A stretch of DNA of 46,201 bases from Synechococcales cyanobacterium (GTDB lineage: Bacteria; Cyanobacteriota; Cyanobacteriia; Leptolyngbyales; Leptolyngbyaceae). Shown one piece after another: positions 3,343 to 44,103 of this stretch. Location: contig JAYUEU010000192.1 in NCBI GenBank assembly GCA_043739065.1, forward strand, positions 1-46,201, given 5' to 3'. The translations under genes and the position numbers were made by a program. Every line of letters starts with the position of its first letter. Position 1 is the stretch's first letter. The notes under the pieces were generated by a model. It was not told where the DNA came from. It did no database searches and saw only the letters and a program-made list of their open reading frames with translations.

Positions 3343-3792
3343 ATGGATCTTGAAAACATGCCCGTTGACTCGATGATGAACCAGATGCCCGTTGATCAAA
3401 TGGATGCATTTCCGGAGTATTTCATCTCTTTAGATCCACCCATTGTGCTAATTGGGGCGGCGTTGCTGTTCAGCATTTTGTCGGGTGTGGCGTTCCAGGG
3501 TGCGCTAGTGGAAGATTTGAATAATTGGAAAGCAAATCCCAAGGCCCGCAGCATTACGAGTTTGCAAAACATCAATTTAATTCTGCCGTTTTTAGGAATG
3601 GCGATCGGCTCTTCGTTCTTTTTGTCATCGGGAGTTGAAACCTTTGGATTTCCGCCCAAGATTGCCTATGCGATCGCTATTCCGATGGCATTTTCCGTCG
3701 GTTGGCTAGTGTGGAGACAATTGGGTTCAATTTTGCGTCAGATTGAACAAGGTGGTTCGGCGGCGATCGATTTGGATGACGTTGGGTTCTAG
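3343..3792 (+). CDS. hypothetical membrane protein (about 3 TM segments)
   Basis: 149-aa ORF with hydrophobic segments and no recognisable catalytic motif. Confidence 0.45.
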   Translation: MDLENMPVDSMMNQMPVDQMDAFPEYFISLDPPIVLIGAALLFSILSGVAFQGALVEDLNNWKANPKARSITSLQNINLILPFLGMAIGSSFFLSSGVETFGFPPKIAYAIAIPMAFSVGWLVWRQLGSILRQIEQGGSAAIDLDDVGF

Positions 3793-3921
3793 AGTATTCA
3801 ATACCGATCCCTCGTCATTCATGCGGGGGATTTTGACAATACCTATCAAACTGGGAAATGATGATAGAGGTGCCTGAGTTTACTGGATTGTAGAGGGAGC
3901 GATCGGATTTGCCATAACTTT

Positions 3922-3953
3922 ATTTATAGATTTCTGAATTTATAGATTTCTGA
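3922..3953 (+). repeat. perfect 16-bp tandem direct repeat (ATTTATAGATTTCTGA x2) 13 nt upstream of the DUF4160 start codon
   Basis: Read directly: 3922-3937 is identical to 3938-3953. The position fits a promoter/operator of the two-gene module. Confidence 0.9.
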
Positions 3954-3965
3954 TGCGGGGATAAT

Positions 3966-4214
3966 ATGCCAGAGGTATCGAGATTTTACGGAATTGTGAT
4001 TAAGGTTTTCTTCGGAGATCATCCACCGCCTCATTTACATGCCATTTATGGAGAGCATAATGCACTATTTGGAATTGAGACATTACAAGTGATTGAAGGT
4101 GATTTACCGAGTCGTGCAGAAAAGCTTGTGACTGAATGGGCAACACTATATCAGGCTGAATTAATGGAAATGTGGAATAGCCAAGAATTTCGGAAGCTTC
4201 CTCCTTTAAAATAA
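3966..4214 (+). CDS. DUF4160 domain protein
   Basis: 82-aa ORF whose N-terminus MPEVSRFYGIVIKVFFGDHPPPHLH is the hallmark of DUF4160. Confidence 0.75.
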   Translation: MPEVSRFYGIVIKVFFGDHPPPHLHAIYGEHNALFGIETLQVIEGDLPSRAEKLVTEWATLYQAELMEMWNSQEFRKLPPLK

Positions 4215-4229
4215 TACTAGAATTAACTG

Positions 4230-4487
4230 ATGCAAGTTCCTAAAATTGTTTCTGCCAGAGCGATCGATGCTAGAAAACTTATAGTTGAGTTCAGTAGTCA
4301 TGAGATCAAACAATATGACATCTCCCATTTGTTAAATAAGTCAATGTTTTATCCATTGCAGGAATATTCCTTTTTCAACAGTTTCAGTATTGAGCCAGGT
4401 GGTTATGGGTTAGTGTGGAATGATGAGATTGATATTAGTGAGTATGAGCTTTGGAAAAATGGGGTGACAATTAGTTCTAATGTGTGA
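4230..4487 (+). CDS. DUF2442 domain protein (usual partner of DUF4160)
   Basis: 85-aa ORF 15 nt downstream of the DUF4160 gene. It has the pattern KLIVEFSSHEIKQYDISHLL ... GYGLVWNDEIDIS typical of DUF2442. Confidence 0.7.
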   Translation: MQVPKIVSARAIDARKLIVEFSSHEIKQYDISHLLNKSMFYPLQEYSFFNSFSIEPGGYGLVWNDEIDISEYELWKNGVTISSNV

Positions 4488-4591
4488 GCTGATCGGTTAT
4501 CCGAGAATAAGATAATCAATCAATTAGAAATGTCGATAGATTTTGAATTGATTGACTGATAAAATAGGTCGCTGGAGCAAATCGTTAAGCA

Positions 4592-5512
4592 TCACTTGGC
4601 ATCATGTGCTTCGACAAGAAACAGAATATTGGTTGCAGTGAGATTCAGTCCATAGCGAGCGATGTATTCTGGAACTATTATTGGGTCTACTCCCTGGCCA
4701 TGTCCACCGTTTTTGTTTCGAAGCGTAGGTACGCCGCTCTCTAATAAAGAGCGATAGGAACTCATTTGTGAATCAAGATATGGCGGGAGTATTCCTTGAG
4801 TTGTACAGATTCGAATTAGTTTACTTGCTGTGTCAGTCGGGTGACTTTCCCACCCGCGAATTTTACAGATAGCCTTCATTGTGCTTTCAAATGCTGCTAG
4901 TGAATTAACTAAACATCCTTTGTGTCTACCATGCCGATAGTGCTCATGAGCAAGTAAGAATTCGTCATTGGCACCCTTGAAGTCTTCGCCAGACAAGAGT
5001 TTTAGCGTAGGCTTTATAGCTTCAGCATGGAGAAATTCAGAATCAATTCGAATAAGCTTACTCGACTCAAATTGATATCCAACACCATTTTCTTTAAAAC
5101 GTTCATTTAAGGTCAAAATAGCATGATCAGGATTAATAGTTCCAGGTGTATGGCCATATAAGAAGGGATACTCATGTCTAATATTGGTATCTATTACCCG
5201 GAAGCATAAATCAATCGCATCCAATACTTGTTCAATTGACTCTTCTTCTAACAGAAACTTTAAGATTGGATAGACATTAGGCAGAGAATATTGAACGAGT
5301 TGTAAGAGTCCATGTTCTCGGCATAAAATATCCTGCACCAGTTCATAGGCATTGTCTTGCCCTCTATTTATACGTCCATGACCAAATGCATCACGAACTA
5401 TATAAGTAATTTGAACGCGTAACTTATGTGGTAACGAATCATAAACATAGACATCAGGAACCTCACCTTGCTCACGGCGCTGACGTTTAGAAAAAAGTTC
5501 AACGACTGTCAT
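4592..5512 (-). CDS. Abi-like protein (STM4504/CBY_0614-type N-terminus, Abi_C-like C-terminus)
   Basis: 306-aa ORF. The N-terminus FSKRQRREQGEVPDVYVYDSLPHKLRVQI and the C-terminal RNKNGGHGQG resemble abortive-infection AbiJ/Abi_C-type proteins, recalled from memory. No CGATCG hexamer is visible in the gene. Confidence 0.5.
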   Translation of the reverse strand: MTVVELFSKRQRREQGEVPDVYVYDSLPHKLRVQITYIVRDAFGHGRINRGQDNAYELVQDILCREHGLLQLVQYSLPNVYPILKFLLEEESIEQVLDAIDLCFRVIDTNIRHEYPFLYGHTPGTINPDHAILTLNERFKENGVGYQFESSKLIRIDSEFLHAEAIKPTLKLLSGEDFKGANDEFLLAHEHYRHGRHKGCLVNSLAAFESTMKAICKIRGWESHPTDTASKLIRICTTQGILPPYLDSQMSSYRSLLESGVPTLRNKNGGHGQGVDPIIVPEYIARYGLNLTATNILFLVEAHDAK

Positions 5513-12362: not shown

Positions 12363-12488
12363 ATTAGTCATTCAAACTATGGAAGTGCGATCGATTTGGC
12401 AAACAATCTAATTCTGGTAACGCATAATACACAAGAGTTCGAGCATGTGAATGGGTTGCAACTTGAAGATTGGGAGATAGTAGTTTGA
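12363..12488 (+). pseudogene. C-terminal remnant of a PIN-domain VapC toxin
   Basis: The frame translates to ...GSAIDLANNLILVTHNTQEFEHVNGLQLEDWEIVV*, the typical VapC C-terminus (LVT.N..dF..i.gL.lEdW). An in-frame TGA lies just upstream, and there is no N-terminal PIN half or antitoxin. Confidence 0.55.
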
Positions 12489-13068: not shown

Positions 13069-15006
13069 ATGGTGAAGGTCGCATTGCTGATTGGGGTTGG
13101 GAATTACGAGTATCCGCATGATGTGATGCCGTTGGTGAGTGCGCCTAAAGATGTGGCAGCGATGCAGCGGATTCTCTTGAATCCTCAGATGGGGGACTTC
13201 TCTGAGGTTATACCGCTGATCGATCCTGACCCGATGCAAATGCAGGAAGCGATCGAAACGTTGTATCGCGATCGGGGAAAAGATGATCTCGTTCTACTAT
13301 TCTTCTCTGGTCATGGACTCAAAGATGATGGCGGCAAACTTTACTTTTCAACGCGATTAACCCGTAAAACGCTGAAAGGTGATCTAGTCAAATCGACAGC
13401 GGTGCCTGCCAGCTTTGTGCGAGAAATTATGGGCAACAGTCGATCGCGACGACAGGTCATGATTTTAGACTGTTGTTTTAGTGGAGCTTTTGACCCATCA
13501 CTTAATGCCAAGGATGATGGATCTCTGGATGTTCAAGGCCAACTCGGTGCAGAAGGGCGCGTTGTACTGACTTCTTCCAGTTCGACTCAGTATTCTTTTG
13601 AGCAACAAGGCTCAGAACTCTCGATCTACACGCGCTTTTTAGTCGAAGGGATTGAAACTGGCGCGGCGGATCGGGATAGCGATGGCAATGTTTCGGTGCG
13701 GGAATTGCATGAGTATGCGACCCAGAAGGTGCACGAGGCTGCACCAAAGATGAATCCCAAAATCATTGTGCTGAAGGATGAAGGTTTTGATGTGGTGTTT
13801 GCGAAGGCGCAAATTACTGATCCGAAGCTAAGGTACCGTAAGGAAGCAGAACGTTATTCAATGCGGGGCGAAATCTCTCCAGCCGGCCGGACGTTGCTTA
13901 ATACGCTGCGAGAGCGACTGGCGCTAACATTTGAAGAAACCCAAGAAATTGAAGATCAGATTTTACAACCGTTTCGGGAGCGTTTGCAGCATTTAGAGAC
14001 CTATCGCTCGACCTTTGTTGCAGAAGTCGAGCGTCAATATCCTTTTATGCAAGAAACTATCAATGAGTTGAAAGACTTACGGGAGATTCTGGGACTGAGA
14101 AAAGAGGATGTTACACCGGTTGAACAAGAAGTTATCTCGCAAATTGTTAGCAAGTCAGAAGCTTATCGACAAAAGCTACAACGGTATGAGCAAGAATTCA
14201 TCAGAGCTATTCAGGCTGAGTTTCCATTGAGTCAACCTGTTAGTGAGGGATTAAACAAGTTTCAAGCTGAATTGGGATTGATCGATGAGGATGTGGTACA
14301 AATCAAGCGCCCCATTCTTGAGCGTCGAGTTGCTGGGGATAAGCAACAAGAGTTAGAGCAGCAAAGGCAACAGGATTCAGAAAAAGTGCGACAACCAAAC
14401 GGGGCAATGCAAAGGCTGAAGGAAGATCATCCTCAACCAGATTCTTCGGCACATATACCTGTTCGTTCTAGCAAGTCACTATTGGCTGGAGCCTGTCTTT
14501 TATCGATGCTTGTTGCCGGAGGTCTTTTCTATTTCAAATCGACTTATCCACAACCTCAATCTGATGTTCAAGAATCGTCTAATTCTTCTGTTACATCAAC
14601 TCCCATAACTTCTCTGCCTTCTCCTCCTAAGCTAATAACTTCTCCATCTCCACAAGTCATTTTACCTAATACTCCTGTTTCTTCTTTATCACCACCTACT
14701 CCAAACCAAATTCTTACCCCAACACCAGTAGCTCGTCATCCGCCCACTCCAACTGTTCTACCTTTAAACGAGCGTAGGTACACAACTATTGAGACTGATG
14801 ATCACAAGATCGAGGTGCGAGAGACCCCTAAAACAGAGACTAAAAAATTTCTGACGCTAAAAGAAAATACAAATGTATTTTGTAGAGAGATAACGACAAC
14901 GGGTGAGAATGTTACGGTTAAAAATAAGTCTAGCGATCAGTGGAGATTCTGCCAAATGCCTGATAACTCTCATGGCTTCATCCACTCACTTCTCCTTACT
15001 CCTTAG
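13069..15006 (+). CDS. peptidase C14 caspase-family protein (orthocaspase) with helical repeats, a TM segment, a Pro/Ser/Thr linker and a C-terminal small beta domain
   Basis: VALLIGVGNYEY..., LLFFSGHGLKDDGGKLYF (His) and MILDCCFSGAF (Cys) form the caspase dyad. Three LGL..EE-type helical repeats occupy aa 270-420, and the TM segment is LLAGACLLSMLVAGGLFYF. Confidence 0.85.
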   Translation: MVKVALLIGVGNYEYPHDVMPLVSAPKDVAAMQRILLNPQMGDFSEVIPLIDPDPMQMQEAIETLYRDRGKDDLVLLFFSGHGLKDDGGKLYFSTRLTRKTLKGDLVKSTAVPASFVREIMGNSRSRRQVMILDCCFSGAFDPSLNAKDDGSLDVQGQLGAEGRVVLTSSSSTQYSFEQQGSELSIYTRFLVEGIETGAADRDSDGNVSVRELHEYATQKVHEAAPKMNPKIIVLKDEGFDVVFAKAQITDPKLRYRKEAERYSMRGEISPAGRTLLNTLRERLALTFEETQEIEDQILQPFRERLQHLETYRSTFVAEVERQYPFMQETINELKDLREILGLRKEDVTPVEQEVISQIVSKSEAYRQKLQRYEQEFIRAIQAEFPLSQPVSEGLNKFQAELGLIDEDVVQIKRPILERRVAGDKQQELEQQRQQDSEKVRQPNGAMQRLKEDHPQPDSSAHIPVRSSKSLLAGACLLSMLVAGGLFYFKSTYPQPQSDVQESSNSSVTSTPITSLPSPPKLITSPSPQVILPNTPVSSLSPPTPNQILTPTPVARHPPTPTVLPLNERRYTTIETDDHKIEVRETPKTETKKFLTLKENTNVFCREITTTGENVTVKNKSSDQWRFCQMPDNSHGFIHSLLLTP

Positions 15007-15063
15007 ACCTACATCTCCTTAAAAGGGCGTTTGAAAGGCCCCTGAGTCGCTAGCAAAAAGCTC

Positions 15064-15094
15064 GATCCCCTAAATTCTCCTTAGCAACGGTGAC
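15064..15094. repeat. solo, degenerate arm of the GATCCCCTAA-type hairpin element
   Basis: GATCCCCTAAATTCTCCTTAGCAACGGTGAC resembles the termini of the elements at 29939-30081 and 44106-44217. Confidence 0.35.
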
Positions 15095-15245
15095 TTTGAT
15101 CCGAATGCTGATTCCTTTTTTTTTAAGAACAGAACGATCAGGTCTCGATTGTCACAACCTTTTTCGGACTATGGTGAGTATTATCTTAGATTTCATAGAA
15201 AATTGTATTTTGTAATAAACTAATTGACCTTTAGTTAACTTCTAT

Positions 15246-15971
15246 GTGTCTTCTATTTCCATGAAAATTAATCGTCGATCGCTGCTGATTCCTTGGGCTT
15301 TGCTGATTGCTTTGTTTGTGGTGATGATTCGACAATCGGTGAGTTATGGGATAACGCGATTGACGATCGTCCTAATAGGAACTGTAGTTATTGCGGGATT
15401 GCTTTATTTTTTGTGGAAGCAAACGATCGTGCGGTGGAGTACGATCGCATTTCTTACAGGCTTTAGTATTTTTCTGATGTTGCCGGGGAATCTGGTGGCA
15501 GGCAAAGATTTACAACCGAACTATGGCGCAATGCTCAGGAGTTATAAGGGTGTGCCCTATGTCTTGGGCGGGGAAAATCACTTTGGGATTGATAGCTCAG
15601 GATTAGTGCGGGAGGGATTGATTCAGGCGAACCTGCATTATGGCTTTGAGACCTTAAATCCGGCATTAATTCGGCGAGGACTGGAGATGTGGTGGTTTGA
15701 TGGGGCGGCAGATGCGCTATTAGGGGAATATCGTGGTTATACACAGCGTCAGTTTGCGGCGGTGAGCATCAATGCGCTTGACCACAGTCGGATTAAGCTA
15801 GGCGACTTAGCTGCGACCAGTGACGGAGAATATATTCTGGCGTACTTGGGCAATAAACAATGGATTGAAGCTGACCCGAATTTACGCAAAGTAGTGATTG
15901 AGTCAGTACCCACCACTAATCCATGGTTTAATACTGCCGTCGAGATTTTGCGGTGGCGGCAATTTATATAA
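15246..15971 (+). CDS. membrane-anchored NlpC/P60-like protein with substituted catalytic residues
   Basis: 241-aa ORF (GTG at 15246; alternative ATG at 15261). YKGVPYVLGGENHFGIDSSGLV matches the NlpC/P60 'Y.wGG...G.DCSG' motif but has Ser where the nucleophile Cys should be. Confidence 0.5.
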   Translation: MSSISMKINRRSLLIPWALLIALFVVMIRQSVSYGITRLTIVLIGTVVIAGLLYFLWKQTIVRWSTIAFLTGFSIFLMLPGNLVAGKDLQPNYGAMLRSYKGVPYVLGGENHFGIDSSGLVREGLIQANLHYGFETLNPALIRRGLEMWWFDGAADALLGEYRGYTQRQFAAVSINALDHSRIKLGDLAATSDGEYILAYLGNKQWIEADPNLRKVVIESVPTTNPWFNTAVEILRWRQFI

Positions 15972-35901: not shown

Positions 35902-36948
35902 TTATGATTTTAACTTTTGAATGGCGGTATTGATCAAACTTTGGCCTTCTTCAACCGATCGAATTTGGCTCAAACTAGCTCGTAATTCATTGGCTCCTGC
36001 AAATCCTTTACAATACCAAGTCATATGTTTTCGAGATTGATAAATACCTCGATCGCCTTTGTATTCCGCTAGCATTTGCAAATGTTCGGCGGCACATTGG
36101 AGGATTTCGATCGTAGTTGGTTTTGTTTTTTCAATTCCATATTTGAGATAGTAATCGACCTCGCCGACTAAAAACGGATAGCCCAACGTTCCCCGCGAAC
36201 ACATCACACCATCGGCTCCCGTGATTTCTAAACATCTCACCGCCGACTCCACCGAATCAATATCGCCATTTGCAATCACGGGAATATCTAATTGTTCTTT
36301 AACCTGACGAATCCAGTCCCAATCCGCAGGACCATTATAAGCTTGTGCTCGTGTTCTGGCATGAATCGTAATCATTTCAGCTCCAGCGTCTTGCAACCGT
36401 TGTGAAAATTCTAAAATATTAATTTCGTAATTATCCCAACCAATCCGAGTCTTAACGGTAACAGGAACATCGACGGCATTTACCACTTCACGAACAATTT
36501 GCGCTGCTAATTCTGGTTGACGTAATAAAGAAGATCCGCCGCCATTTTTTGTAATTTTATTTACAGGGCAACCCATATTTAGATCGATCGTATCTGCGCC
36601 CTGAGCTACTGCCTTTACCGCCGCTGATGCTAAAAAATCTGGACGACAATCAAATAATTGAATACTAATAGGCCGTTCATCTGGATCAATATCCATAATG
36701 ATTGGTGTTTCTTTTAAATGCTGTAAACTCGCCGCCTGTACCATTTCTGTATACATCATCGAGTCTGGGGCATACCGTCTCACCAACCGCCGAAATACTA
36801 GATCGGTTACCCCTGATAAAGGTGATTGTAAAACTCGGCTCTGAAGTATAACTGCGTTCTTTCCATGGCCGATCGTGAGAGGATCTGTGAGTTGGCGTGT
36901 GATATTTTGGGTGAGTGTTGGAGACATGGGTGAGATCCTATTTACCAA
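35902..36948 (-). CDS. dusB: tRNA-dihydrouridine synthase
   Basis: LAPLSGVTD-type N-terminus (LQSPLSGVTDLVFR), DLNMGCPV, VTVKTRIGW and HARTR are the Dus family motifs. An alternative start at 36927 removes the overlap with the Uma2 gene. Confidence 0.88.
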   Translation of the reverse strand: MVNRISPMSPTLTQNITRQLTDPLTIGHGKNAVILQSRVLQSPLSGVTDLVFRRLVRRYAPDSMMYTEMVQAASLQHLKETPIIMDIDPDERPISIQLFDCRPDFLASAAVKAVAQGADTIDLNMGCPVNKITKNGGGSSLLRQPELAAQIVREVVNAVDVPVTVKTRIGWDNYEINILEFSQRLQDAGAEMITIHARTRAQAYNGPADWDWIRQVKEQLDIPVIANGDIDSVESAVRCLEITGADGVMCSRGTLGYPFLVGEVDYYLKYGIEKTKPTTIEILQCAAEHLQMLAEYKGDRGIYQSRKHMTWYCKGFAGANELRASLSQIRSVEEGQSLINTAIQKLKS

Positions 36949-37556
36949 ATTCGAGTCATACTCAATAGGAATCCTGGCATTACTTCACTACAGTCGATCG
37001 CAGCAGGGGATTCTAATATTTCTGCCGTTTGTCCCGATCGATAGATTTCCACTTGCTTATTTTTAGGATTTATCAATAGTCCTAATTTAACTCCTAGCCG
37101 TTGATATTCCTGCATTTTATTTTGTAATGATTTCAAATCATCTGTTGCAGAACGAAGCTCAATCATAAAATCAGGCACAACTGGAATGAATCCGACAATC
37201 TCTACGCCTTCTAGTCGGGACTTTTCAATCCAAGATACGTCCGGGGATAACTTTCCACCCCCGATCGCTGTAAAATCATAGCCTGTTGATGAATCAAAGA
37301 CTTTCCCTAAACCGCTCTGTCGGTTCCAAAGTCCAGCGTCGATCGTTAAATCAACATTTCGTGCACCACTCTCACCACCTGTTGGAGGCATAACAATCAA
37401 TTCTCCATTAGCGGTTAATTCAAGTCGTAAATCAGGGTTGTCGATGCAGAGCAGATCAAACTGTTCTGAACTAACTGTCAATGCTGTATTGCTAACATTC
37501 AGTAATAATGGATGCTTCTCAATGGTGGTGATGGACGGTGAATCAGCGACTATCAT
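36942..37556 (-). CDS. Uma2-family (DUF820) PD-(D/E)XK endonuclease
   Basis: ELTANGELIVMPPTGGESG..., PDVSWI, PDFMIELRS and the LGLLINPKNKQVEIYR tail are typical of cyanobacterial Uma2 proteins. Confidence 0.8.
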   Translation of the reverse strand: MIVADSPSITTIEKHPLLLNVSNTALTVSSEQFDLLCIDNPDLRLELTANGELIVMPPTGGESGARNVDLTIDAGLWNRQSGLGKVFDSSTGYDFTAIGGGKLSPDVSWIEKSRLEGVEIVGFIPVVPDFMIELRSATDDLKSLQNKMQEYQRLGVKLGLLINPKNKQVEIYRSGQTAEILESPAAIDCSEVMPGFLLSMTRIW

Positions 37557-37923
37557 GAACTTCTCCTAGTAGTTACGAAATCAGCTATGAAATCTAATTA
37601 ATTTAAATCATATTACGACACTGTGGTGCGATCGATAATTTAGCAATTAAATTTAGAATTCTGACAAATCAATACAATATTAGTACTCTATTTAATCCAC
37701 ACCTCTGATTGAACGGCCATTCATTAGTCTAATTGTCTATCAGAATAAATATTTTGTCCAGAAGATTTTTTGATACCCACGAATAGAACCTTTCAACTTT
37801 CCACCGCGAAATGTTCTTGAGTAACATTTTAAAATGGTTACCCTTGATACGCTCAGCTACCTATGGTCAAGCACTTATCTAGTGATTGTTCCTCGCACGT
37901 CGATTCACCATTGCCTGATTTTT

Positions 37924-40158
37924 ATGACTGAAACGGCTAAAACTCAATGCCCTTACTGTGGCGTAGGCTGTGGTTTGGAGGTTTTTCCTCCAGCAATGCC
38001 AGGGAAAAACGTTACGCGGATCGCTGATGGTACTCCCGTTTGGCAGGCACGGGGCGATCGGACTCATCCGTCTAGCCTTGGTCAAGTTTGCGTTAAAGGT
38101 GCGACGGTAGGTGAGTCACTTCACCAAGATCGACTCAAATACCCGATGATGCGCGAATCCTTGGATCAACCCTTCAAGCGCGTTACTTGGGATGTTGTTT
38201 TAGATGCGATCGCGGAGAGAATCAAAATAGTAGTCGAGACTCAAGGTCAAGATGCTATCGCCATGTACGGTTCAGGCCAATTTCAAACCGAGGACTACTA
38301 CGTCGCGCAAAAACTAATAAAAGGCTGTTTAGGAACGAACAATTTTGATGCAAACTCCCGCCTGTGCATGTCTTCCGCTGTGTCAGCTTATGCGCAGAGT
38401 TTTGGAGCTGATGGACCACCTTGTAACTATGATGATCTTGACATTACAGACTGCGCATTTTTAATCGGAACTAATACTGCTGAATGCCATCCAATTATCT
38501 TTAATCGACTACGTAAAAACCATAAAAAAAATCCTGAAACTCGCCTGATTGTCGTTGATCCTCGTGCAACAGATACCTCAAAACATGCGGACCTCCATCT
38601 CGCCATCAAACCTGGAACCGACATCGATCTGATGCATGGCATTGCCTATTTACTGTTGCAATGGAGTCAACAATCGCCTCAATACATTGCCCAGCATTTC
38701 ATTGAAAAATTCACCAATGGATTTGAAGAATACCGTGCGATCGTAAAAGACTATACTCCTGAGAAAGTCGCTGAAACTTGCGGTATTACCGTCGCTGAAA
38801 TCAAACAAGCTGCTCGCTATTGGGGTAAAGCCAAAAATGTTCTCTCCATGTGGTCTATGGGAATCAATCAATCTAGTGAAGGCACTGCAAAAGCCCGAAC
38901 TCTGATTAATCTCCACTTATTGACTGGCCAAATCGGTCGCCCCGGTGCCGGACCTTTTTCTTTGACTGGCCAACCTAATGCTATGGGCGGACGGGAAGCG
39001 GGTGGATTGGCACATTTATTGCCGGGATATCGATTTGTTACGAATGCAGAGTCCCGTCGGCAGGTCGAAGAGTTTTGGAAGCTTCCATCGGGACGGATCT
39101 CAGCTCAGCCGGGATTGACGGTGTGGGACATGATTAAGGCGATGGAATTGGGCGACATCGGACTTTTTTGGGTGGTTGCTACGAATCCGGTGGTTAGTTT
39201 GCCTGATCTCGATCGGGTCAAAAAAGCTTTGCGTAATTGTTCTTTTGTAATCCATCAAGAATGCTATTCCCCGACGGAAATGGCGGAGTTTTCTCATGTG
39301 TTGCTCCCGGCGGCCCAATGGAGTGAAAAAACTGGCGTGATGACCAATTCCGAACGCCGTCTTACGCTCTGTCCTAAATTCCGAACGCCGCCAGGAGAAG
39401 CCCGAGCCGATTGGGTGATTTTTGCCGAGGTTGGGCAGCGCTTGGGATTTGTGCGGGAGTTTTCGTTTAATGATTCAGCGGAAGTATATAGCGAATTTGT
39501 GCGGCTCACAAAAGGCCAACCCTGCGACCAGACGGGGTTGAGTCACGAATATTTGATGAAAAATGGTCCCACGCAATGGCCTGCGCCTAAGGGCAATCTT
39601 CCAACTGTTGGTGTGTCGAATCGCCTCTATTCGGATTTGAAATTCCACACTAATGATCGCCGGGCCAAGTTCATCGCCTGCCACTCTAAAGGACTCGCCG
39701 AACCGCCCGATCGTAATTTTTCCTATGTTTTGACTACCGGAAGACTGTACGGCCATTGGCACACTATGTCTCGCACGGCCCGCATTGAAAAAATCATGAA
39801 AATGCACCCTAAGCCTTTTCTAGAGGTTCATCCTCGTGATGCAAAAGCCTTGTCTGTTCAGGAAGGGGATTGGGTCGAAGTCCGATCGCGTCGTGGATTT
39901 GTGCGGCTTCCGGTGGTCGTAACGAAGGGAATCTCACCTGGAACGGTCTTTATGCCAATGCATTGGGGTGCGCTGTGGGCGGAGAATGCTGAGGCGAATA
40001 TGTTGACCCATCCGATCGCCTGTCCAGTGTCTAAGCAGCCTGAACTTAAAGCCTGTGCTGTCAGCTTAGTTCCTGTTTCTGGGACTGCTGCTTTGGCTAA
40101 AGAACTGAGTTGGACCAGTGGGTTACTCGAAAAACTCTTTCAACGGACTCCCGTGTAG
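37924..40158 (+). CDS. narB: ferredoxin-dependent assimilatory nitrate reductase
   Basis: [20 protein letters not shown] carries the N-terminal 4Fe-4S motif, on a molybdopterin oxidoreductase body. The ATG at 37924 is preferred to the upstream ATG at 37834, whose 30-aa extension has no counterpart in the family. Confidence 0.9.
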
Positions 40159-40258
40159 TGATAGTGCGATCGGGTTTTGGGGAGGTTGAAGAGCGATCGT
40201 CTACTTATTTGGTATTTACGTGGATAAGTTATCGGTCTAAGATCTGCGATCGGGTTAC

Positions 40259-40285
40259 GTATGCGGGAATTTCCCGTCTACATAC
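40259..40285. promoter_or_regulatory. nested palindrome GTATG-CGGGAATTTCCCG-tcta-CATAC upstream of darT (candidate operator)
   Basis: Read directly. It lies 69 nt upstream of the darT ATG. The function is inferred only. Confidence 0.3.
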
Positions 40286-40353
40286 TTGTTAAACTACGCT
40301 TTAGGTACGGGAATAATGGGAGCAAGTTAAATTAAATTTGCGTACAAGCTCTA

Positions 40354-40950
40354 ATGGATTACCTTCAATTGCACGGTATAGAATACCTATACCATATGAC
40401 ACACATAGATAATCTTGCGTCTATCGTTGATAACGGTTTACTCTCTCAGAATGAAGCGCATAGGCAGGGATTAATAGAATCCGATATTTCAGATCCTAAA
40501 GTTCAAAATATTAGAGCACGCACCGTAGACTCTCTATACAAGAGGTCATTGCATGAATACGTGCCACTGTATTTCGCGCCAACGAACCCGATGCTCTATA
40601 AAAGAAGAGAAATGCAGGAAGACATCATTATTCTAGGACTTGATCCTCAACTTCTCTCCGAGACTAACATTATATTTACCAATGGAAATGCTGCGGCAAG
40701 TGGAACTATTTTTTATAGAGACATTCATATGCTTGCTCAATTGCCGTGGGATTCAATTAGAGCAAGGAGTTGGATAGATATCGAGGACGGTAAGCGAATA
40801 AAGTGTGCTGAGGTACTTGTCTACCCAAAAATTGAGCCAAACCGGATTAAGATAGTATTCTGTTACTCTCAAAAACATCGTGAAACAATCATTGCAGCTA
40901 AGCAGAGAACCTCTATCATAGGGAAAGTAAACCGAGATTTATATTTCTAG
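40354..40950 (+). CDS. darT: DarT (DUF4433) ssDNA ADP-ribosyltransferase toxin
   Basis: 198-aa ORF with YLYHMTHIDNLASIVDNGLLS, VPLYF..TNPMLY, FTNGNAA and a KCAEVLVYPKI glutamate, the DUF4433/DarT pattern. Confidence 0.8.
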   Translation: MDYLQLHGIEYLYHMTHIDNLASIVDNGLLSQNEAHRQGLIESDISDPKVQNIRARTVDSLYKRSLHEYVPLYFAPTNPMLYKRREMQEDIIILGLDPQLLSETNIIFTNGNAAASGTIFYRDIHMLAQLPWDSIRARSWIDIEDGKRIKCAEVLVYPKIEPNRIKIVFCYSQKHRETIIAAKQRTSIIGKVNRDLYF

Positions 40951-42089
40951 TGCCCATGCTTCGTTACACTGACACCACCGTTTTTAATGTCGGCGCTCAG
41001 ACGATCGTCAACGCAGTCAACTGTGTCGGCGTTATGGGTGCTGGGCTTGCCTTAGAGTTCCAATTACGATTTCCTGAAATGGAAAAGGATTACGTGCAGC
41101 GCTGCAACCAGAAAAAGGTAACAGTTGGCAGACCTTATCTTTACAAGGACTACAGTGATCCTTTTATTTTAAATTTTCCAACTAAAAACCACTGGAAATA
41201 TCCTTCAAAAATCGAATGGATAGAGCAAGGCTTAGAATACTTTTCTGCTAATTACCAAAGAGGAGGTATCACTTCTATTGCGTTTCCAAAGTTGGGATGC
41301 AGTAATGGGGGACTTGAGTGGGAGATTATATCTCCACTTATGAAAAAGTATTTGCAGAATCTTGATATCGATATATTTATCTGCGAGGACACGGAGAAAG
41401 AAGCTTCAGGTGAAGAGGCTGATATGGTTCGTATGCTCAACAATATTGATGAGCTTCCTTGGTCTGAGAAACTCGGTATTCGAGCAGACATCAAACGAAA
41501 AATTATTTCTGCAATCCCTATTAATAGATTTAGGGATTTGAGGAGAGTTCAGGGAATTGGTAAGCAAACGTACAACGATGTATTTACCTCCTTATACTCA
41601 TTAACCCACTGTGGCGATAATGTAGATTCTACTCAAAAGCTTGAAGTTGCAAATCTCAACTTGTTTGAAGAGCTTGATAGTTCTTACACTCAGCCTACCG
41701 AGCCAGTGACAAACTGCTATCAAGAAACTGAATTAGAAGATATCTCTCAAAAAGTTGAATTAGAAGATATAGGAAAATTCTCTAATGAGCTGAACTCAAA
41801 AGTAGAAGACCTTTCTGACATTAGAAAATCCGAAGGTAAGATTGATAACTTTCCAGCATCGTATGATGCTTTTCATATAATGCTGCCCCATATTGAAAAG
41901 GAACTAAGTGTTGGACAAACGAAAGATGAGATTGCTAATAGATTTGACCTGCCTAAAAAGTTGGTTAGTAACTGGCTAGAAAAAGCAGAAAATCTTGGAA
42001 GAATTAGGAAGCTTTCACGCCGTCCTGTGAAGTATATTGTGGCATCTTCTATCCCAACTGAACAGTTAGAGTGCAGCTTCATCGTGTGA
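40950..42089 (+). CDS. darG: DarG-like macrodomain antitoxin with an atypical C-terminal half (HhH + acidic linker + wHTH-like)
   Basis: The N-terminal macrodomain is QTIVNAVNCVGVMGAGLALEFQLRFPE...FPTKNHWKYPS...SIAFPKLGCSNGGL. The GTG at 40950 overlaps the darT TAG (alternative ATG at 40956). RVQGIGKQTYNDVF is HhH-like. Confidence 0.75.
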   Translation: MPMLRYTDTTVFNVGAQTIVNAVNCVGVMGAGLALEFQLRFPEMEKDYVQRCNQKKVTVGRPYLYKDYSDPFILNFPTKNHWKYPSKIEWIEQGLEYFSANYQRGGITSIAFPKLGCSNGGLEWEIISPLMKKYLQNLDIDIFICEDTEKEASGEEADMVRMLNNIDELPWSEKLGIRADIKRKIISAIPINRFRDLRRVQGIGKQTYNDVFTSLYSLTHCGDNVDSTQKLEVANLNLFEELDSSYTQPTEPVTNCYQETELEDISQKVELEDIGKFSNELNSKVEDLSDIRKSEGKIDNFPASYDAFHIMLPHIEKELSVGQTKDEIANRFDLPKKLVSNWLEKAENLGRIRKLSRRPVKYIVASSIPTEQLECSFIV

Positions 42090-42662
42090 TATTTTAGTAC
42101 GTTATCGCACGGCCTAACAATGCAGTAGATCTGACCGAGAGCATATTCTAGTCCTACCATTACCGATCAGCAGAATCGTTAGACCGATCGGAAATTCTAA
42201 AGATTGAATCGATCGCGAGAACTTAAAATCTTCAAAATTACAATGGCCAGGAATTTTCTTTTAGTTCTAGGCTGTTTTTGATTTTTGTAGCCATACTGCC
42301 TAGAATTTCTTCCCAATTCTGTATCTGATTTGACAAAACCTACGAAAATTTAATTTATTTAGAATAAATGCGATCGAATCTAGAAATCAATTAATAATTA
42401 AAACTGTTTATTACGATACAGAAAATACATGATTGACTTCAATTGATAATTTAAAAACTAAAAAATTTACTATTTTTACTGCTTATCGGTGTGTCTTAAA
42501 ACGGCTACTCAAAGTCACTTATTTCTTATACTTTCTTCTGCACTTCTTTCTGGTAAAGGTTTTCAATTTTTTTTGTTAGCTTCCTACTAAAAAGTTACAA
42601 GGTATACAAATTGCAATATATGGATTAGTAGAATTTAAAAAAAGCATTCAATGTTGCTTTTT

Positions 42663-42676
42663 GTACTTTTACATAC
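42663..42676 (+). promoter_or_regulatory. candidate NtcA-binding site GTACTTTTACATAC (perfect GTA-N8-TAC) upstream of nrtA
   Basis: Exact match to the NtcA consensus, 120 nt upstream of the nrtA ATG. A TAAATT (TAN3T) -10 candidate lies at 42694-42699. A weaker GTT-N8-TAC occurs at 42594-42607. Confidence 0.5.
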
Positions 42677-42795
42677 AAAATAAAGTCTTCAATTAAATTA
42701 ACTTCTCACTATTGAAACTGTTAGTTACTCCCCAGAGTGCAGGCTCTTCGCTAGCTAATTCTCAATTCATACTCATCGATCGGATATACGGACTC

Positions 42796-44103
42796 ATGGC
42801 TAATTTTTCAAGACGAAAATTTCTTCTAACAGTCGGTGCAACGGCAGCCGGAACAATGTTGGCCAATGGCTGTAGTTCCGGCACCAGCTCCAATACAAGC
42901 TCTGTCCCAGCCGTCAACAGTGGTACAGCCGACAGCCCCGAAACGGATAAAGTCACTCTGGGCTTCATCGCACTGACTGATTGTGCACCCTTAGTTATTG
43001 CTAAGGAAAAAGGTATTTTCGCGAAGTATGGACTAAAAGGCGCTGAAGTTAAGAAACAGACATCTTGGGCCAATACCCGTGACAATATAGAACTCGGCGG
43101 AGATAAAGGCGGTTTAGATGGCGCGCACATCTTGACTCCCATGTCCTATATGTTGACCTCCGGCAAGATCACCAAGGGAAACGTCAAAATTCCCATGTAT
43201 ATCTTGGCCCGTTTGAATCTGAATGGTCAAGGCATCTCTATTTCTAATGAATATGCGGATCAGAAATTTGAGGTTAAGGCCGACAAGCTCAAAGCGAAGG
43301 TCGAGGCAATCAAGGCGGCGGGTAAAAAATTCCAATGCGCCGTGACTTTCCCCGGTGGAACTCACGACCTCTGGATGCGCTACTGGCTTGCAGCCAATGG
43401 TGTTAACCCTGATGAAGATGTAGATATTAAGGTCATTCCACCCGCCCAAATGGTGGCCAACATGGAAACCAAATCCATGGATTCATTCTGCGTAGGTGAA
43501 CCTTGGAATCAGCGTCTCGTCACTAAGAAACTGGGTTACAACGCCCTTACGACAGGCGAACTCTGGAAAGATCACCCCGAAAAATCCTTCACCGTCCGCA
43601 AAGACTGGGCTGACAAGAATCCCAAGGCTGCAAAAGCGCTCCTCATGGCGATCCTAGAAGCTCAAATGTGGTGCGATAAGGACGAAAATAAGGCCGAGAT
43701 GTGTAAGCTGACGGAGTCCGATCAATATATCAAAGCACCATCCTCTGACATTTTGGCTCGGATGCAAGGGGACTTTGATTTCGGGGATGGCCGCAAGCTT
43801 GAAAAATCGCCGCTCTTGATGAAGTTCTGGCGTGACAATGCATCGTTCCCCTATAAGAGCCACGACCAATGGTTCGTCACGGAAAATGTACGTTGGGGGA
43901 TGTTCACAGAAGCCGATCTTGCAATGGTTGATACCGTCAATCGATCGGACCTCTGGCGTGAAGCAGCTAAAGCTCTCAAAATTCCTGATGCTCAGATTCC
44001 AAAAGAAGATTCTCGCGGTAAGGAAACGTTCTTTGATGGCGTGACCTTTGATCCAGCCGATCCAAAAGCATATTTAGCTAGCTTGAAAATCAAAAAAGCA
44101 TAG
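42796..44103 (+). CDS. nrtA: nitrate/nitrite ABC transporter substrate-binding lipoprotein NrtA
   Basis: MANFSRRKFLLTVGATAAGTMLANGCSS is a Tat/lipobox leader. LGFIALTDCAPLVIAKEKGIFAKYGL matches the NrtA/CmpA family. The start at 42796 is preferred to the TTG at 42712. Confidence 0.9.
   Translation: MANFSRRKFLLTVGATAAGTMLANGCSSGTSSNTSSVPAVNSGTADSPETDKVTLGFIALTDCAPLVIAKEKGIFAKYGLKGAEVKKQTSWANTRDNIELGGDKGGLDGAHILTPMSYMLTSGKITKGNVKIPMYILARLNLNGQGISISNEYADQKFEVKADKLKAKVEAIKAAGKKFQCAVTFPGGTHDLWMRYWLAANGVNPDEDVDIKVIPPAQMVANMETKSMDSFCVGEPWNQRLVTKKLGYNALTTGELWKDHPEKSFTVRKDWADKNPKAAKALLMAILEAQMWCDKDENKAEMCKLTESDQYIKAPSSDILARMQGDFDFGDGRKLEKSPLLMKFWRDNASFPYKSHDQWFVTENVRWGMFTEADLAMVDTVNRSDLWREAAKALKIPDAQIPKEDSRGKETFFDGVTFDPADPKAYLASLKIKKA

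What the first reader, a model, noticed from the sequence alone, without database searches (positions are those of the whole stretch)
40354..42089. DarT/DarG module with a non-canonical DarG C-terminus, inserted inside the nitrate-assimilation cluster
ORF 40354-40950 has the DUF4433/DarT pattern. Its stop codon overlaps the start of a macrodomain protein (DarG-like). DarTG is an established toxin-antitoxin and anti-phage system, in which DarT ADP-ribosylates ssDNA and the DarG macrodomain reverses the modification.

What is notable here:
- The pair sits between narB and nrtABC, which are normally contiguous in cyanobacteria.
- The 1.74-kb pair is visibly more A+T-rich than its neighbours. It contains a single CGATCG and no GCGATCGC, whereas flanking DNA has such sites every few hundred bp. 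This argues for recent horizontal acquisition.
- The C-terminal half of DarG contains an HhH-like motif (RVQGIGKQTYNDVF), an acidic linker with an internal duplication (ELEDISQKVELEDIGKF) and a wHTH-like end (GQTKDEIANRFDLPKKLVSNWLEKAENLGRIRK). This differs from what I recall of the DarT-binding domain of characterised DarG proteins, and may add DNA binding or autoregulation.
Basis: partly seen in the sequence, partly recalled or inferred. Interest (0 to 1): 0.65.

Follow-up and report, generated by a model that had tools for sequence, protein, structure and literature searches.

The report
Imported DarT–DarG pair, unusual antitoxin
A 1.8-kb toxin–antitoxin/anti-phage cassette (DarT plus a DarG-like macrodomain protein) has been dropped between two nitrate-assimilation genes of a cyanobacterium. 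Its antitoxin belongs to an undescribed DarG subfamily that has lost the usual toxin-binding domain and instead carries DNA-binding-type modules and a tail resembling a sliding-clamp-binding motif.

Summary
ORF 40354-40950 is a DarT (Pfam 1e-43, catalytic Glu153 intact). ORF 40950/40956-42089 starts with a DarG-type macrodomain (6e-30 to Thermus DarG, catalytic Lys79 intact).

The pair is a mobile ~1.83-kb cassette (about 40305-42138). Three close relatives have narB directly next to nrtA. A co-occurring relative in the source metagenomes skips the region. A foreign contig carries the cassette at 88.5% nucleotide identity with unrelated flanks. GC (0.39) and CGATCG counts are low.

The DarG C-terminal half is non-canonical. 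Canonical DarGs carry a Panacea/DUF4065-like toxin-binding domain. Here the DarG profiles stop at residue ~155 and a profile-profile comparison gives 0.07% probability. In its place are:
- a ComEA-like (HhH)2-type helical module;
- a disordered acidic linker;
- a winged helix shared with PsyrA/RqlI and NADAR antitoxins;
- a disordered tail, QLECSF.

New here: 92 of 120 relatives, whatever their middle domain, end in a β-clamp-binding-like motif (QLSLF, QLSLPL and similar). This suggests an antitoxin tethered to DNA or the replisome rather than one that sequesters its toxin.

The palindrome at 40259-40285 and the acidic duplication are not functional parts of the cassette. Verdict: new variant of a known kind; the mechanism is inferred and untested.

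The parts
37834..40158 (+). narB (assimilatory nitrate reductase), the left neighbour of the insertion
   Evidence: Pfam Molybdopterin, Molydop_binding and Fe4S4 domains. 86-96% identical NarB in relatives L001-L006.
40159..40302 (+). narB 3' flank. It is native, not part of the cassette, and contains the imperfect palindrome 40256-40284.
   Evidence: Homologous to the narB 3' flank of L001 and L002, which lack DarTG. Palindrome arms 40256-40269 / 40271-40284.
40305..42138 (+). Mobile DarT-DarG cassette (~1.83 kb): 49-bp leader, darT, darG-like gene and ~49-bp trailer
   Evidence: 88.5% nucleotide identity to contig L172 over exactly 40305-42138 with unrelated flanks. L173 matches 40309-42113 at 81.7%. 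A contig of run X3 starts matching at 40303. The window-specific segment versus L001 is 40292-42170.
40305..40353 (+). Conserved 49-bp leader of the cassette. It is a candidate promoter/operator, unproven.
   Evidence: Conserved with L172 and L173 upstream of darT. The consensus scan found no sigma-70-like promoter.
40354..40950 (+). darT: ssDNA ADP-ribosyltransferase toxin, 198 aa. Catalytic Glu153 lies at 40810-40812.
   Evidence: Pfam DarT 1e-43. PADLOC DarT 8.6e-46. Thermus DarT 7omv 2e-17 against DarT1 8baq 5e-7. E153 and R54 are invariant, also in canonical DarTs.
40950..42089 (+). darG-like antitoxin gene, 379 aa from GTG 40950. The likelier start is ATG 40956, giving 377 aa.
   Evidence: ORF. 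Homologues start at MLRY.
40950..41399 (+). Macrodomain (residues 1-150): DarG/TARG1-type ADP-ribosyl glycohydrolase with catalytic Lys79 in the FPTK motif
   Evidence: Thermus DarG macrodomain 5m31 at 6.2e-30. PADLOC DarG 7.8e-56 over residues 3-156. K79 is invariant in 52 homologues.
41409..41612 (+). Helical module (residues 154-221), (HhH)2/ComEA-like. It contains RFRDLRRVQGIGKQTYNDVF and is shared by all architectural variants of this DarG clade.
   Evidence: AF2 pLDDT ~90, five helices. Profile against PDB: ComEA-related 2duy E=0.013, ComEA 8dss E=0.034. Conserved in the 240-aa, 330-400-aa and wHTH forms.
41616..41858 (+). Disordered acidic linker (residues 223-303: 20 D/E, 7 K/R). It contains the window-specific 17-residue duplication at 41730-41780.
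   Evidence: pLDDT ~30. Unconserved columns. Composition.
41868..42041 (+). Winged helix-turn-helix (residues 307-364) with a basic wing, GRIRKLSRRPVKY
   Evidence: AF2 H-H-H-E-E topology, pLDDT ~90. Foldseek top hits are Zalpha, ArsR/SmtB, MarR and CodY, target TM-scores up to 0.85. PADLOC PsyrA C-terminus 5e-7. A profile of the module finds 466 representative proteins. Of 82 longer hits, 68 have a DprA/SLOG domain; ten were scanned with PADLOC and six of them are full-length PsyrA. Two carry NADAR domains.
42063..42080 (+). C-terminal tail motif QLECSF (residues 372-377), a β sliding-clamp-binding-like motif with Cys at position 4
   Evidence: pLDDT below 50 for residues 371-379. Q372 and L373 are conserved in at least 90% of homologues. 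The family-wide motif is enriched in tails: 92/120 relaxed and 31/120 strict, against 13 and 0 of 2214 internal windows.
42171..42711 (+). Native nrtA upstream region with an NtcA-type GTA-N8-TAC site at 42663-42676. It is intact downstream of the cassette.
   Evidence: 42217-42900 is homologous to L001 16491-17189. 42589-42726 is conserved in L003-L005. Site located.
42712..44103 (+). nrtA (nitrate ABC-transporter substrate-binding protein), the right neighbour
   Evidence: Pfam NMT1_2 at 1.9e-104. 85-95% identical in L001 and L003-L005.

Best explanation
The locus is a horizontally acquired 1.83-kb DarT2-type toxin / macrodomain-antitoxin cassette. It sits in the narB-nrtA spacer of a filamentous 'Synechococcales'/Alkalinema-like cyanobacterium.

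DarT (Glu153 intact) is expected to ADP-ribosylate thymidines in ssDNA. The DarG-like protein (Lys79 intact) is expected to remove the adduct.

The antitoxin belongs to a distinct, mainly cyanobacterial DarG clade. This clade lacks the canonical Panacea/DUF4065-type DarT-binding domain. Its constant parts are the macrodomain, a ComEA-like (HhH)2-type helical module, and a disordered C-terminal tail resembling a β sliding-clamp-binding motif. The window's protein additionally has an acidic disordered linker and a winged helix shared with PsyrA/RqlI and NADAR antitoxins.

Proposed mechanism (inferred): neutralisation is mainly enzymatic (type IV-like). The antitoxin is positioned on DNA and at the replisome by the HhH module and the tail. 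The winged helix adds DNA binding, possibly autoregulation.

Shown: identity of the domains, absence of the canonical C-terminal domain, modularity, motif enrichment, and the insertion.
Inferred: every biochemical activity, clamp binding, DNA binding, and the absence of DarT sequestration.
For: Domains and catalytic residues.

Loss of the canonical C-terminal domain:
- DarG profiles cover only positions 1-155.
- Plasmid DarGs match the model end to end.
- hhalign probability is 0.07%.
- The canonical C-terminal domain is Panacea/DUF4065-like (PMC13621843).

Architecture: AF2 models. The winged helix by Foldseek. ComEA-like module.

The winged helix is shared with PsyrA and NADAR antitoxins. 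In RqlI that HTH is dispensable for toxin neutralisation (PMC4670107).

In EPEC the macrodomain alone rescues cells from DarT (PMC7003065).

Tail motif:
- Strict clamp-binding pattern in 31/120 tails, against 0/2214 internal windows and a mean of 1.0 in shuffled tails.
- Relaxed pattern in 92/120, against 13/2214.
- It is conserved across three architectures whose middle regions are unrelated.
- Examples match known motifs: Hda QLSLPL, PolC QLSLF, Pol I QLELF.
- PsyrA-type proteins also show tail enrichment: QxxLF in 12/82 tails against 0.3% of internal windows.

Insertion. Every variant follows a darT gene.
Against: - No experiment exists for any member of this clade.
- In the window's own subclass, position 4 of the motif is Cys (QLECSF, QLECF), not Leu. 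Position 4 is one of the residues most important for clamp binding. Only 1 of 49 wHTH-class tails fits the strict pattern.
- The ComEA match is marginal (E=0.013), and no Pfam HhH family hits.
- The 120 proteins are homologues, so part of the tail conservation is inheritance.
- Direct DarT binding by the helical module, the linker or the winged helix cannot be excluded. An acidic linker could mimic ssDNA.
- DarT scores below NCBIfam's equivalog cut-off (137.9 against 150), so its target specificity is unknown.
- No promoter or operator was identified.
Confidence: 0.6

Rival explanations
1. This is an ordinary type II-like DarTG. On this view the novel C-terminal half (helical module, acidic linker, winged helix and/or tail) is just a non-homologous replacement of the toxin-binding domain. 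It would still neutralise DarT by binding and occluding its ssDNA groove, and the QLxxxF tail would be the DarT-docking peptide.
For: - The canonical DarG C-terminal domain sequesters DarT (PMC7003065; Deep et al. 2023, as cited).
- Antitoxins commonly use disordered C-termini to wrap their toxins (general knowledge).
- The linker is strongly acidic, with 20 D/E in 81 residues, so it could mimic ssDNA.
- The cyanobacterial-type DarTs are a distinct subgroup lacking several insertions of canonical DarTs. They could therefore have co-evolved a different partner surface.
Against: - The winged helix and similar tails occur on PsyrA, whose toxin is an unrelated RecQ-like helicase/PRTase, and on NADAR antitoxins. 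This argues for a toxin-independent partner.
- The RqlI HTH is dispensable for neutralisation.
- The ~240-aa forms lack both the linker and the winged helix, yet still pair with DarT.
- The linker is unconserved.
Confidence: 0.25
2. The winged helix is a classical autorepressor domain that binds an operator in the cassette leader and controls darTG transcription. The tail would be unrelated, for example a protease degron that sets antitoxin turnover. This is not exclusive of the best explanation.
For: - The fold resembles ArsR/SmtB, MarR and CodY repressor domains.
- The wing is basic and conserved: G350, K354, R358, P359 and Y362.
- A 49-bp leader travels with the cassette.
- Type II antitoxins typically autoregulate (general knowledge).
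Against: - No inverted repeat or promoter was found in the 49-bp leader.
- The only palindrome nearby is native narB flank.
- Short DarG variants manage without any winged helix.
- The best fold hits are Zalpha domains, which recognise DNA/RNA conformation rather than sequence.
Confidence: 0.3
3. The pair is native and vertically inherited at this site, and the relatives have lost it. On this view it is a deletion elsewhere rather than an insertion here.
For: L001 and L002, the closest relatives by NarB identity (96% and 92%), do not have a clean narB-nrtA junction either. The site is rearranged in several lineages.
Against: - The cassette occurs at 82-88% nucleotide identity in unrelated neighbourhoods, with sharp ends at 40305 and 42138.
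- The pair's GC is ~0.40 in every host, whatever the local GC of 0.39-0.51.
- CGATCG is depleted here.
- Three relatives and a co-occurring population have the empty junction.
Confidence: 0.04
4. The cassette is an inactive, decaying remnant.
For: No promoter was detected. Both proteins score below NCBIfam equivalog cut-offs.
Against: - Both ORFs are full length.
- The catalytic Glu153, Arg54 and Lys79 are intact.
- About 50 full-length homologue clusters have a conserved domain order.
- The sub-threshold DarG score is explained by the missing C-terminal domain, not by decay.
Confidence: 0.05

Closest known systems
DarTG2 (DarT2 / macrodomain DarG) of Thermus, M. tuberculosis and EPEC
   Same: - A DarT (PF14487) gene is followed directly by a TARG1-like macrodomain gene.
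- The DarT motifs and the catalytic Glu are conserved.
- The macrodomain matches Thermus DarG at 6e-30, with the catalytic Lys conserved.
- DarT is closer to Thermus DarT (2e-17) than to DarT1 (5e-7).
   Different: - The Panacea/DUF4065-like toxin-binding domain is absent (hhalign probability 0.07%). It is replaced by an (HhH)2-like module, a disordered linker, a winged helix and a clamp-motif-like tail.
- DarT lacks several insertions found in canonical DarTs.
- Both proteins score below NCBIfam equivalog cut-offs.
PsyrA / RqlI antitoxin of the PsyrTA (RqlHI) system
   Same: - The C-terminal ~80-residue winged helix is homologous: PADLOC PsyrA C-terminus at 5e-7, and a reciprocal profile search recovers full-length PsyrA proteins.
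- Many PsyrA proteins also end in QxxLF-like tails.
   Different: - The enzymatic N-terminus is DprA/SLOG-like in PsyrA, not a macrodomain.
- The toxin is a RecQ-like helicase/PRTase, not DarT.
DarT1-associated NADAR antitoxins (DarG1)
   Same: It is an enzymatic antitoxin that reverses DNA ADP-ribosylation. At least one PF22397 member carries the same winged-helix module.
   Different: The hydrolase is NADAR rather than a macrodomain, it reverses guanine rather than thymine modification, and the DarT subfamily differs.
β-clamp-binding proteins (Pol II, IV and V, Hda, MutS, IS transposases)
   Same: A short motif, QφxLF or QφxLxL, lies in a disordered C-terminal tail. Several relatives carry sequences identical to known motifs: QLSLPL (Hda), QLSLF (PolC) and QLELF (Pol I).
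   Different: No binding data exist. The window's own motif is QLECSF, with Cys where Leu is expected. No antitoxin or macrodomain protein is known to me to use the clamp in this way.
ComEA (HhH)2 DNA-binding domain
   Same: It is the best profile match for the helical module. The second hairpin, G-[IV]-G-K, is conserved, and the size and helix count are the same.
   Different: The match is only marginal (E=0.013). The first hairpin is degenerate, and no Pfam HhH family reaches significance.

Membership tests
DarTG toxin-antitoxin / defence system | Toxin with the DarT (DUF4433, PF14487) ADP-ribosyltransferase fold and a catalytic Glu | tested here: met
   Pfam 1e-43 over profile positions 1-186 of 201. 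PADLOC 8.6e-46. E153 and R54 are invariant with canonical DarTs. NCBIfam equivalog score is 137.9, below the cut-off of 150.
DarTG toxin-antitoxin / defence system | Antitoxin with an N-terminal TARG1-like macrodomain and a catalytic Lys | tested here: met
   5m31 (Thermus DarG macrodomain) at 6.2e-30. PADLOC DarG 7.8e-56 over residues 3-156. K79 in FPTK is invariant.
DarTG toxin-antitoxin / defence system | Antitoxin C-terminal DarT-binding domain (Panacea/DUF4065-like, as in PDB 7YK3) | tested here: not met
   DarG profiles align only to positions 1-155 of 329 or 338. Canonical DarGs align end to end at 435-469 bits. hhalign of the C-terminal halves gives probability 0.07%. No PDB sequence hit. 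Foldseek finds winged helices, not 7yk3.
DarTG toxin-antitoxin / defence system | Adjacent, co-oriented, tightly coupled toxin and antitoxin genes | tested here: met
   The darT stop is at 40948-40950 and darG starts at 40950 (GTG) or 40956 (ATG). The arrangement is the same in all eight loci with full or variant DarG.
DarTG toxin-antitoxin / defence system | DarT toxicity through ssDNA thymidine ADP-ribosylation, reversal by DarG, and phage defence | not testable with these tools
   Requires expression, in-vitro ADP-ribosylation and phage assays.
PsyrA/RqlI-type antitoxin | C-terminal HTH/winged-helix module | tested here: met
   PADLOC PsyrA positions 272-395 of 398 match residues 225-363 at 5e-7. 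Reproduced in P0045 and P0090. A reverse profile search retrieves PsyrA proteins at 1e-81 to 1e-138.
PsyrA/RqlI-type antitoxin | N-terminal DprA/SLOG-like domain and a PsyrT (RecQ-like) partner | tested here: not met
   The N-terminus is a macrodomain and the partner is DarT.
β sliding-clamp-binding proteins | QφxLF or QφxLxL motif in a disordered terminal region | tested here: inconclusive
   The window protein has QLECSF at residues 372-377, in a tail with pLDDT below 50. Positions 1, 2 and 6 fit; position 4 is Cys. Across the clade the strict motif occurs in 31/120 tails against 0/2214 internal windows, and the relaxed motif in 92/120.
β sliding-clamp-binding proteins | Physical binding to the DnaN hydrophobic cleft | not testable with these tools
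   Needs peptide binding assays or complex prediction.
(HhH)2 / ComEA-like DNA-binding domains | Two helix-hairpin-helix motifs in a five-helix bundle | tested here: inconclusive
   Five confident helices, with one clear hairpin in GIGK. Profile against PDB gives ComEA at E=0.013 and 0.034. No Pfam HhH family hits at E<=1.
Horizontally acquired cassette | Absent from the orthologous site in close relatives, present elsewhere with different flanks, and of atypical composition | tested here: met
   Empty junction in L003-L005. A contig skips 40145-42672 in runs X1 and X2. 88.5% nucleotide identity in L172 with foreign flanks. GC and CGATCG statistics.

The most novel reading that the evidence does not exclude
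The tail is a genuine β-clamp-binding motif and, with the HhH module, keeps the de-ADP-ribosylating antitoxin riding on host replisomes. DarT would then be constitutively active but harmless to host DNA, because lesions are erased at host forks. Phage DNA copied by a replisome that does not use the host clamp would accumulate ADP-ribose-thymidine. That would be self/non-self discrimination through antitoxin localisation, rather than release of a sequestered toxin. The same winged-helix-plus-tail unit on PsyrA and NADAR antitoxins would make this a general design for 'repair-type' antitoxins.
Probability: 0.15. Interest if true: 0.85.

Novelty: new variant of a known kind. Interest (0 to 1): 0.58.

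Why it matters
DarTG is a model for reversible DNA ADP-ribosylation, for phage defence, and now for genome-editing tools. All mechanistic work rests on DarGs that both erase the mark and sequester DarT through a Panacea-like domain.

This locus represents a large, mostly cyanobacterial DarG clade that is annotated only as 'macro domain-containing protein'. It lacks that domain and has DNA-binding-type modules and a conserved clamp-binding-like tail instead.

If the tail and modules work as proposed, several things follow:
- Toxin control would be by where the antitoxin sits, not by binding the toxin. That changes how activation by phage should be thought about.
- TA/defence biology would be linked to the replisome.
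- There would be a portable 'winged helix + tail' unit, shared with PsyrA and NADAR antitoxins.

The insertion itself is ordinary TA mobility. It does mark the narB-nrtA spacer as a variable hotspot in this lineage.

Tried and rejected
1. Palindrome 40256-40284 as the DarG operator: rejected. It lies outside the cassette, which starts at ~40305. It is conserved, with one compensatory pair change, in L001 and L002, which lack DarTG.
2. The acidic 'internal duplication' as a functional element: rejected. It sits in a linker with pLDDT ~30 and unconserved columns, and is absent from the 86%-identical P0002.
3. Absence of HIP1 (GCGATCGC) as evidence: rejected as uninformative, because only 0.7 sites are expected. 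The CGATCG count is informative.
4. Sequence search of the C-terminal half against PDB and Pfam: nothing significant.
5. Foldseek of the C-terminal half: only generic winged helices (E 0.02-0.1), no DarG toxin-binding domain, and no separate hit for the helical module in the top 50.
6. Promoter and terminator scan: no promoter upstream of darT.
7. Direct repeats flanking the cassette, or a duplicate of the flank inside the window: none.
8. Phage vehicle: viral contigs hold only distant DarG-like macrodomains (at most 55% identity) and none with the winged helix.
9. Rfam on 39900-42900 and tRNA scan of the window: nothing. Only one relative (L174) has the cassette next to a tRNA-Gly.
10. Literature searches for DarG with a sliding clamp or an HTH: no report of this architecture in the held library.
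11. RNA evidence: only DNA metagenomes hold the cassette well, so transcription was not assessed.
Full report
**1. What is at the coordinates**

ORF 40354-40950 (+, 198 aa) and ORF 40950-42089 (+, 379 aa from a GTG) exist as described.

The first ORF is a DarT:
- Pfam PF14487 at 1e-43, covering profile positions 1-186 of 201.
- PADLOC DarT at 8.6e-46.
- Best solved relative is Thermus DarT 7omv at 2e-17, against 5e-7 for E. coli DarT1 8baq, so it is DarT2-like.
- In an alignment with seven cyanobacterial-type and three canonical DarTs, Glu153 (motif A-E-x-L-V/I-Y/W) and Arg54 are invariant.

The second ORF begins with a DarG-type macrodomain:
- 6.2e-30 to the Thermus DarG macrodomain 5m31.
- PADLOC DarG at 7.8e-56.
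- The catalytic lysine of the FPTK motif (Lys79) is invariant in 52 homologues.

One small correction. The darT stop is TAG at 40948-40950, and almost all homologues start at MLRY. The real darG start is therefore probably ATG 40956, five bases after the stop, rather than the overlapping GTG.

**2. Is it an insertion?**

Yes.

*Relatives.* A NarB search of one genome per species returned six close relatives at 86-96% NarB identity. In L003, L004 and L005, narB is followed directly by nrtA-nrtB. The spacer there is ~175-470 bp and holds no DarT or DarG. L001 and L002 share with the window ~140 bp downstream of narB, but then carry other DNA: an IS-type transposase in L002, and rnc, thrS and others in L001.

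*Cassette limits.* The segment found only in the window is 40292-42170. The cassette's own limits are sharper. Contig L172 is 88.5% identical in nucleotides over exactly 40305-42138 and unrelated outside that range. L173 matches 40309-42113 at 81.7%, and L174 matches 40354-42078 at 82%. A contig of run X3 starts matching at 40303.

*Source metagenomes.* In the two sediment metagenomes that hold the window (X1 and X2), cassette contigs have depth ~5-6. A contig at depth ~9-10 joins 40144 directly to 42673, so a co-occurring close relative lacks the whole spacer.

*Other contexts.* The pair sits in unrelated neighbourhoods elsewhere:
- between a VWA protein gene and purL in Lyngbya aestuarii;
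- next to cobD;
- after a DnaJ-like gene;
- 94 bp after a tRNA-Gly.

*Composition.* This agrees with import. The pair has GC 0.393 against 0.459 for the window (lowest 4.6% of equal-sized windows). It has one CGATCG against 7.8 expected (lowest 1.4%). The pair is ~0.40 GC in every host, whatever the local GC. The absence of the full HIP1 octamer is not informative, since 0.7 sites are expected.

*Effect on nrtA.* The nrtA promoter region, with a GTA-N8-TAC NtcA-type site at 42663-42676, is intact downstream.

*How the cassette moves is unresolved.* It carries no recombinase, has no flanking repeats, and has no close relative on viral contigs.

**3. The antitoxin's C-terminal half**

Both DarG profiles (PADLOC, 329 positions; NCBIfam NF048014, 338 positions) align only to their first ~155 positions. 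The NCBIfam score of 177 bits is below the 250-bit cut-off.

For comparison I fetched canonical DarGs from E. coli, Bacillus thuringiensis and Zymomonas plasmids. They match NF048014 end to end at 435-469 bits. Their C-terminal domain is weakly SocA/Panacea-like (PF13274, E=1.7e-4). This agrees with a published statement that DUF4065 proteins are homologous to the DarT-inhibiting C-terminal domain of M. tuberculosis DarG, PDB 7YK3 (PMC13621843).

A profile-profile comparison of the C-terminal halves gives probability 0.07%.

**4. What replaces it**

AlphaFold models built from 52- and 29-sequence alignments show four parts.

- **Helical module, residues 154-221.** It is a confident five-helix module that includes RFRDLRRVQGIGKQTYNDVF. 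A profile of this module from 36 diverse relatives finds ComEA-type (HhH)2 DNA-binding domains as its best PDB matches, but only marginally (2duy E=0.013; 8dss E=0.034). No Pfam HhH family hits.
- **Linker, residues 223-303.** pLDDT is ~30, with 20 acidic residues among 81 in unconserved columns. The 'ELEDISQKVELEDIGKF' duplication lies here and is private to this protein.
- **Winged helix, residues 307-364.** It is confident, with helix-helix-helix-strand-strand (H-H-H-E-E) topology and a conserved basic wing. Foldseek returns Zalpha, ArsR/SmtB, MarR and CodY domains, with target TM-scores up to 0.85 and E-values of 0.02-0.1.
- **Tail, residues 371-379.** It is disordered.

**5. The winged helix is a shared antitoxin module**

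- PADLOC's PsyrA model matches residues 225-363 with its C-terminal positions 272-395 of 398 at 5e-7. Two distant homologues behave the same way.
- A profile of the module, searched against 1.84 billion representative proteins, finds 466 hits at E<=1e-3.
- Of 82 longer hits, 68 carry a DprA/SLOG domain. Ten of the hits were scanned with PADLOC, and six of them are full-length PsyrA (1e-81 to 1e-138).
- Two hits carry NADAR domains. One matches the DarT1-associated NADAR antitoxin family at 2.5e-85.
- For the E. coli PsyrA orthologue RqlI, the C-terminal ~80-residue HTH is dispensable for neutralising the toxin (PMC4670107).

The module therefore accompanies different enzymatic antitoxins with different toxins. 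That makes a toxin-specific binding role unlikely.

**6. Modularity and the tail**

Relatives of this DarG fall into three architectures. All follow a darT gene:
- macrodomain + helical module + a short tail (~230-250 aa, the commonest form);
- the same plus an unrelated C-terminal domain (~330-400 aa);
- the same plus linker and winged helix (~350-385 aa, about 50 clusters, including this protein).

Whatever lies in the middle, the proteins end alike: QLSLFSL, QLSLPLNF, QLGLFDQP, QLRLFD...QLKLF, QLELNLSY, QLQFPF, and here QLECSFIV.

The bacterial β sliding-clamp-binding motif is QφxLF (consensus QL[S/D]LF) or QφxLxL, and it usually lies at a C-terminus. Published examples are Hda QLSLPL, Pol IV QLVLGL, Pol III α QVELEF, PolC QLSLF and Pol I QLELF (PMC4549789; bioRxiv 10.64898/2026.05.27.728225).

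| Pattern | Last 16 residues (120 relatives) | Internal windows | Shuffled tails |
|---|---|---|---|
| Strict clamp-binding motif | 31 | 0 of 2214 | mean 1.0, max 4 |
| Relaxed motif | 92 | 13 of 2214 | mean 4.3, max 10 |

PsyrA-type proteins show the same tendency after their winged helix. QxxLF occurs in 12 of 82 tails against 0.3% of internal windows, for example QLGLFDE, QLSLPF and QPSLFDG. Canonical DarGs have no such tail.

Three caveats apply:
- The proteins are homologues, so part of the conservation is inheritance.
- In the winged-helix subclass, position 4 is almost always Cys (QLECSF, QLECF), and position 4 matters for binding.
- Nothing has been measured.

I found no report linking DarG to the clamp, or describing this architecture, in the held literature.

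**7. Most likely mechanism**

*Shown:*
- an intact DarT2-like toxin gene and an intact DarG-type macrodomain gene, tightly coupled, on a mobile cassette;
- no canonical toxin-binding domain;
- DNA-binding-type modules and a clamp-motif-like tail in its place.

*Established for relatives:*
- DarT ADP-ribosylates thymidine in ssDNA and stalls replication.
- The DarG macrodomain removes the adduct, and on its own it suffices to rescue EPEC (PMC7003065).

*Inferred for this locus:*
- Neutralisation is mainly enzymatic.
- The HhH-like module and the tail place the enzyme on DNA and at replisomes, where ssDNA and the lesions arise.
- The winged helix adds nucleic-acid binding or autoregulation.

I put about 0.6 on this package overall. 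That breaks down as about 0.9 on identity and insertion, about 0.85 on the architecture, and about 0.4 on clamp binding for this particular protein.

The main rival is that some part of residues 150-379 still sequesters DarT (0.25). An autorepressor role for the winged helix (0.3) is compatible with either model. It is conserved in relatives without DarTG and lies outside the cassette.

**8. Verdict**

The finding is confirmed, and its interpretation is largely supported. The insertion is ordinary TA-cassette mobility.

The antitoxin is the interesting part. It is a widespread, unannotated DarG variant that fails one defining feature of canonical DarG. It shares a C-terminal unit with PsyrA and NADAR antitoxins, and it carries a conserved clamp-binding-like tail.

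Classification: new variant of a known kind. The mechanism is testable with simple peptide-binding and rescue assays.

Noticed in passing
L001:10137-10258, 12372-12454, 14809-14956: The closest relative (NarB 96%) has three copies of the last ~55 bp of narB plus downstream sequence. They bound successive blocks between narB and nrtA: an unknown 219-aa ORF plus rnc; thrS; and a 213-aa ORF plus an HbpS-like gene. This looks like repeated recombination or integration at the narB 3' end, so the spacer is a hotspot in this lineage.
   Followed up: partly
L002:3535-4938: In another relative (NarB 92%), a DDE transposase (DDE_5/DDE_Tnp_1) follows narB at the same position. The start of its upstream sequence is shared with L001.
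   Followed up: partly
window 36942-37556 (-): A Uma2-family putative restriction endonuclease gene overlaps the start of dus by 7 nt. It is reduced to a remnant in L001 and absent from L003, so it is another variable gene just upstream of narB.
   Followed up: partly
window ~3676-5512 and ~13276-15276: Two other stretches are unusual in composition. Around 3676-4300, plus ORF 4592-5512, GC is low (ORF GC3 0.30) and the ORF has no CGATCG. Between 13441 and 15276 there is a 1.8-kb gap without CGATCG, inside and after ORF 13069-15006. Both may be further foreign DNA.
   Followed up: no
L085:2753-3991 (with P0071 at 4001-4744): A short (247-aa) DarG variant pairs with a long (412-aa) DarT that has an N-terminal cold-shock (CSD) nucleic-acid-binding domain. 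A NERD/UvrD-type helicase gene lies immediately upstream.
   Followed up: partly
P0034 (461 aa, homologue): One homologue has the linker-plus-winged-helix unit duplicated in tandem, giving two nearly identical wHTH copies.
   Followed up: no
P0123 (388 aa; representative-library hit): This protein combines a PRTase-CE domain and a NADAR domain with the same C-terminal winged helix and a QLSLSI tail. It is another enzymatic module on the same C-terminal unit.
   Followed up: no
window 40256-40284 vs L001:10308-10336: The narB-flank hairpin is conserved with a compensatory change: CGGG...CCCG in the window against CGGA...TCCG in L001 and L002. It is not followed by a T-run. It could be a structured 3' element of the narB transcript.
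   Followed up: partly
L105, L099, L111 (viral contigs): Some viral-contig DarG-like proteins that include the helical module also end in ...QGSLFPG, ...ESSLFD or ...ENVLFG. The LF tail therefore extends to phage-borne relatives.
   Followed up: partly
L174:4235-4305: In one relative the cassette lies 94 bp downstream of a tRNA-Gly(TCC), a classical integration site. No tRNA is present in the window.
   Followed up: yes
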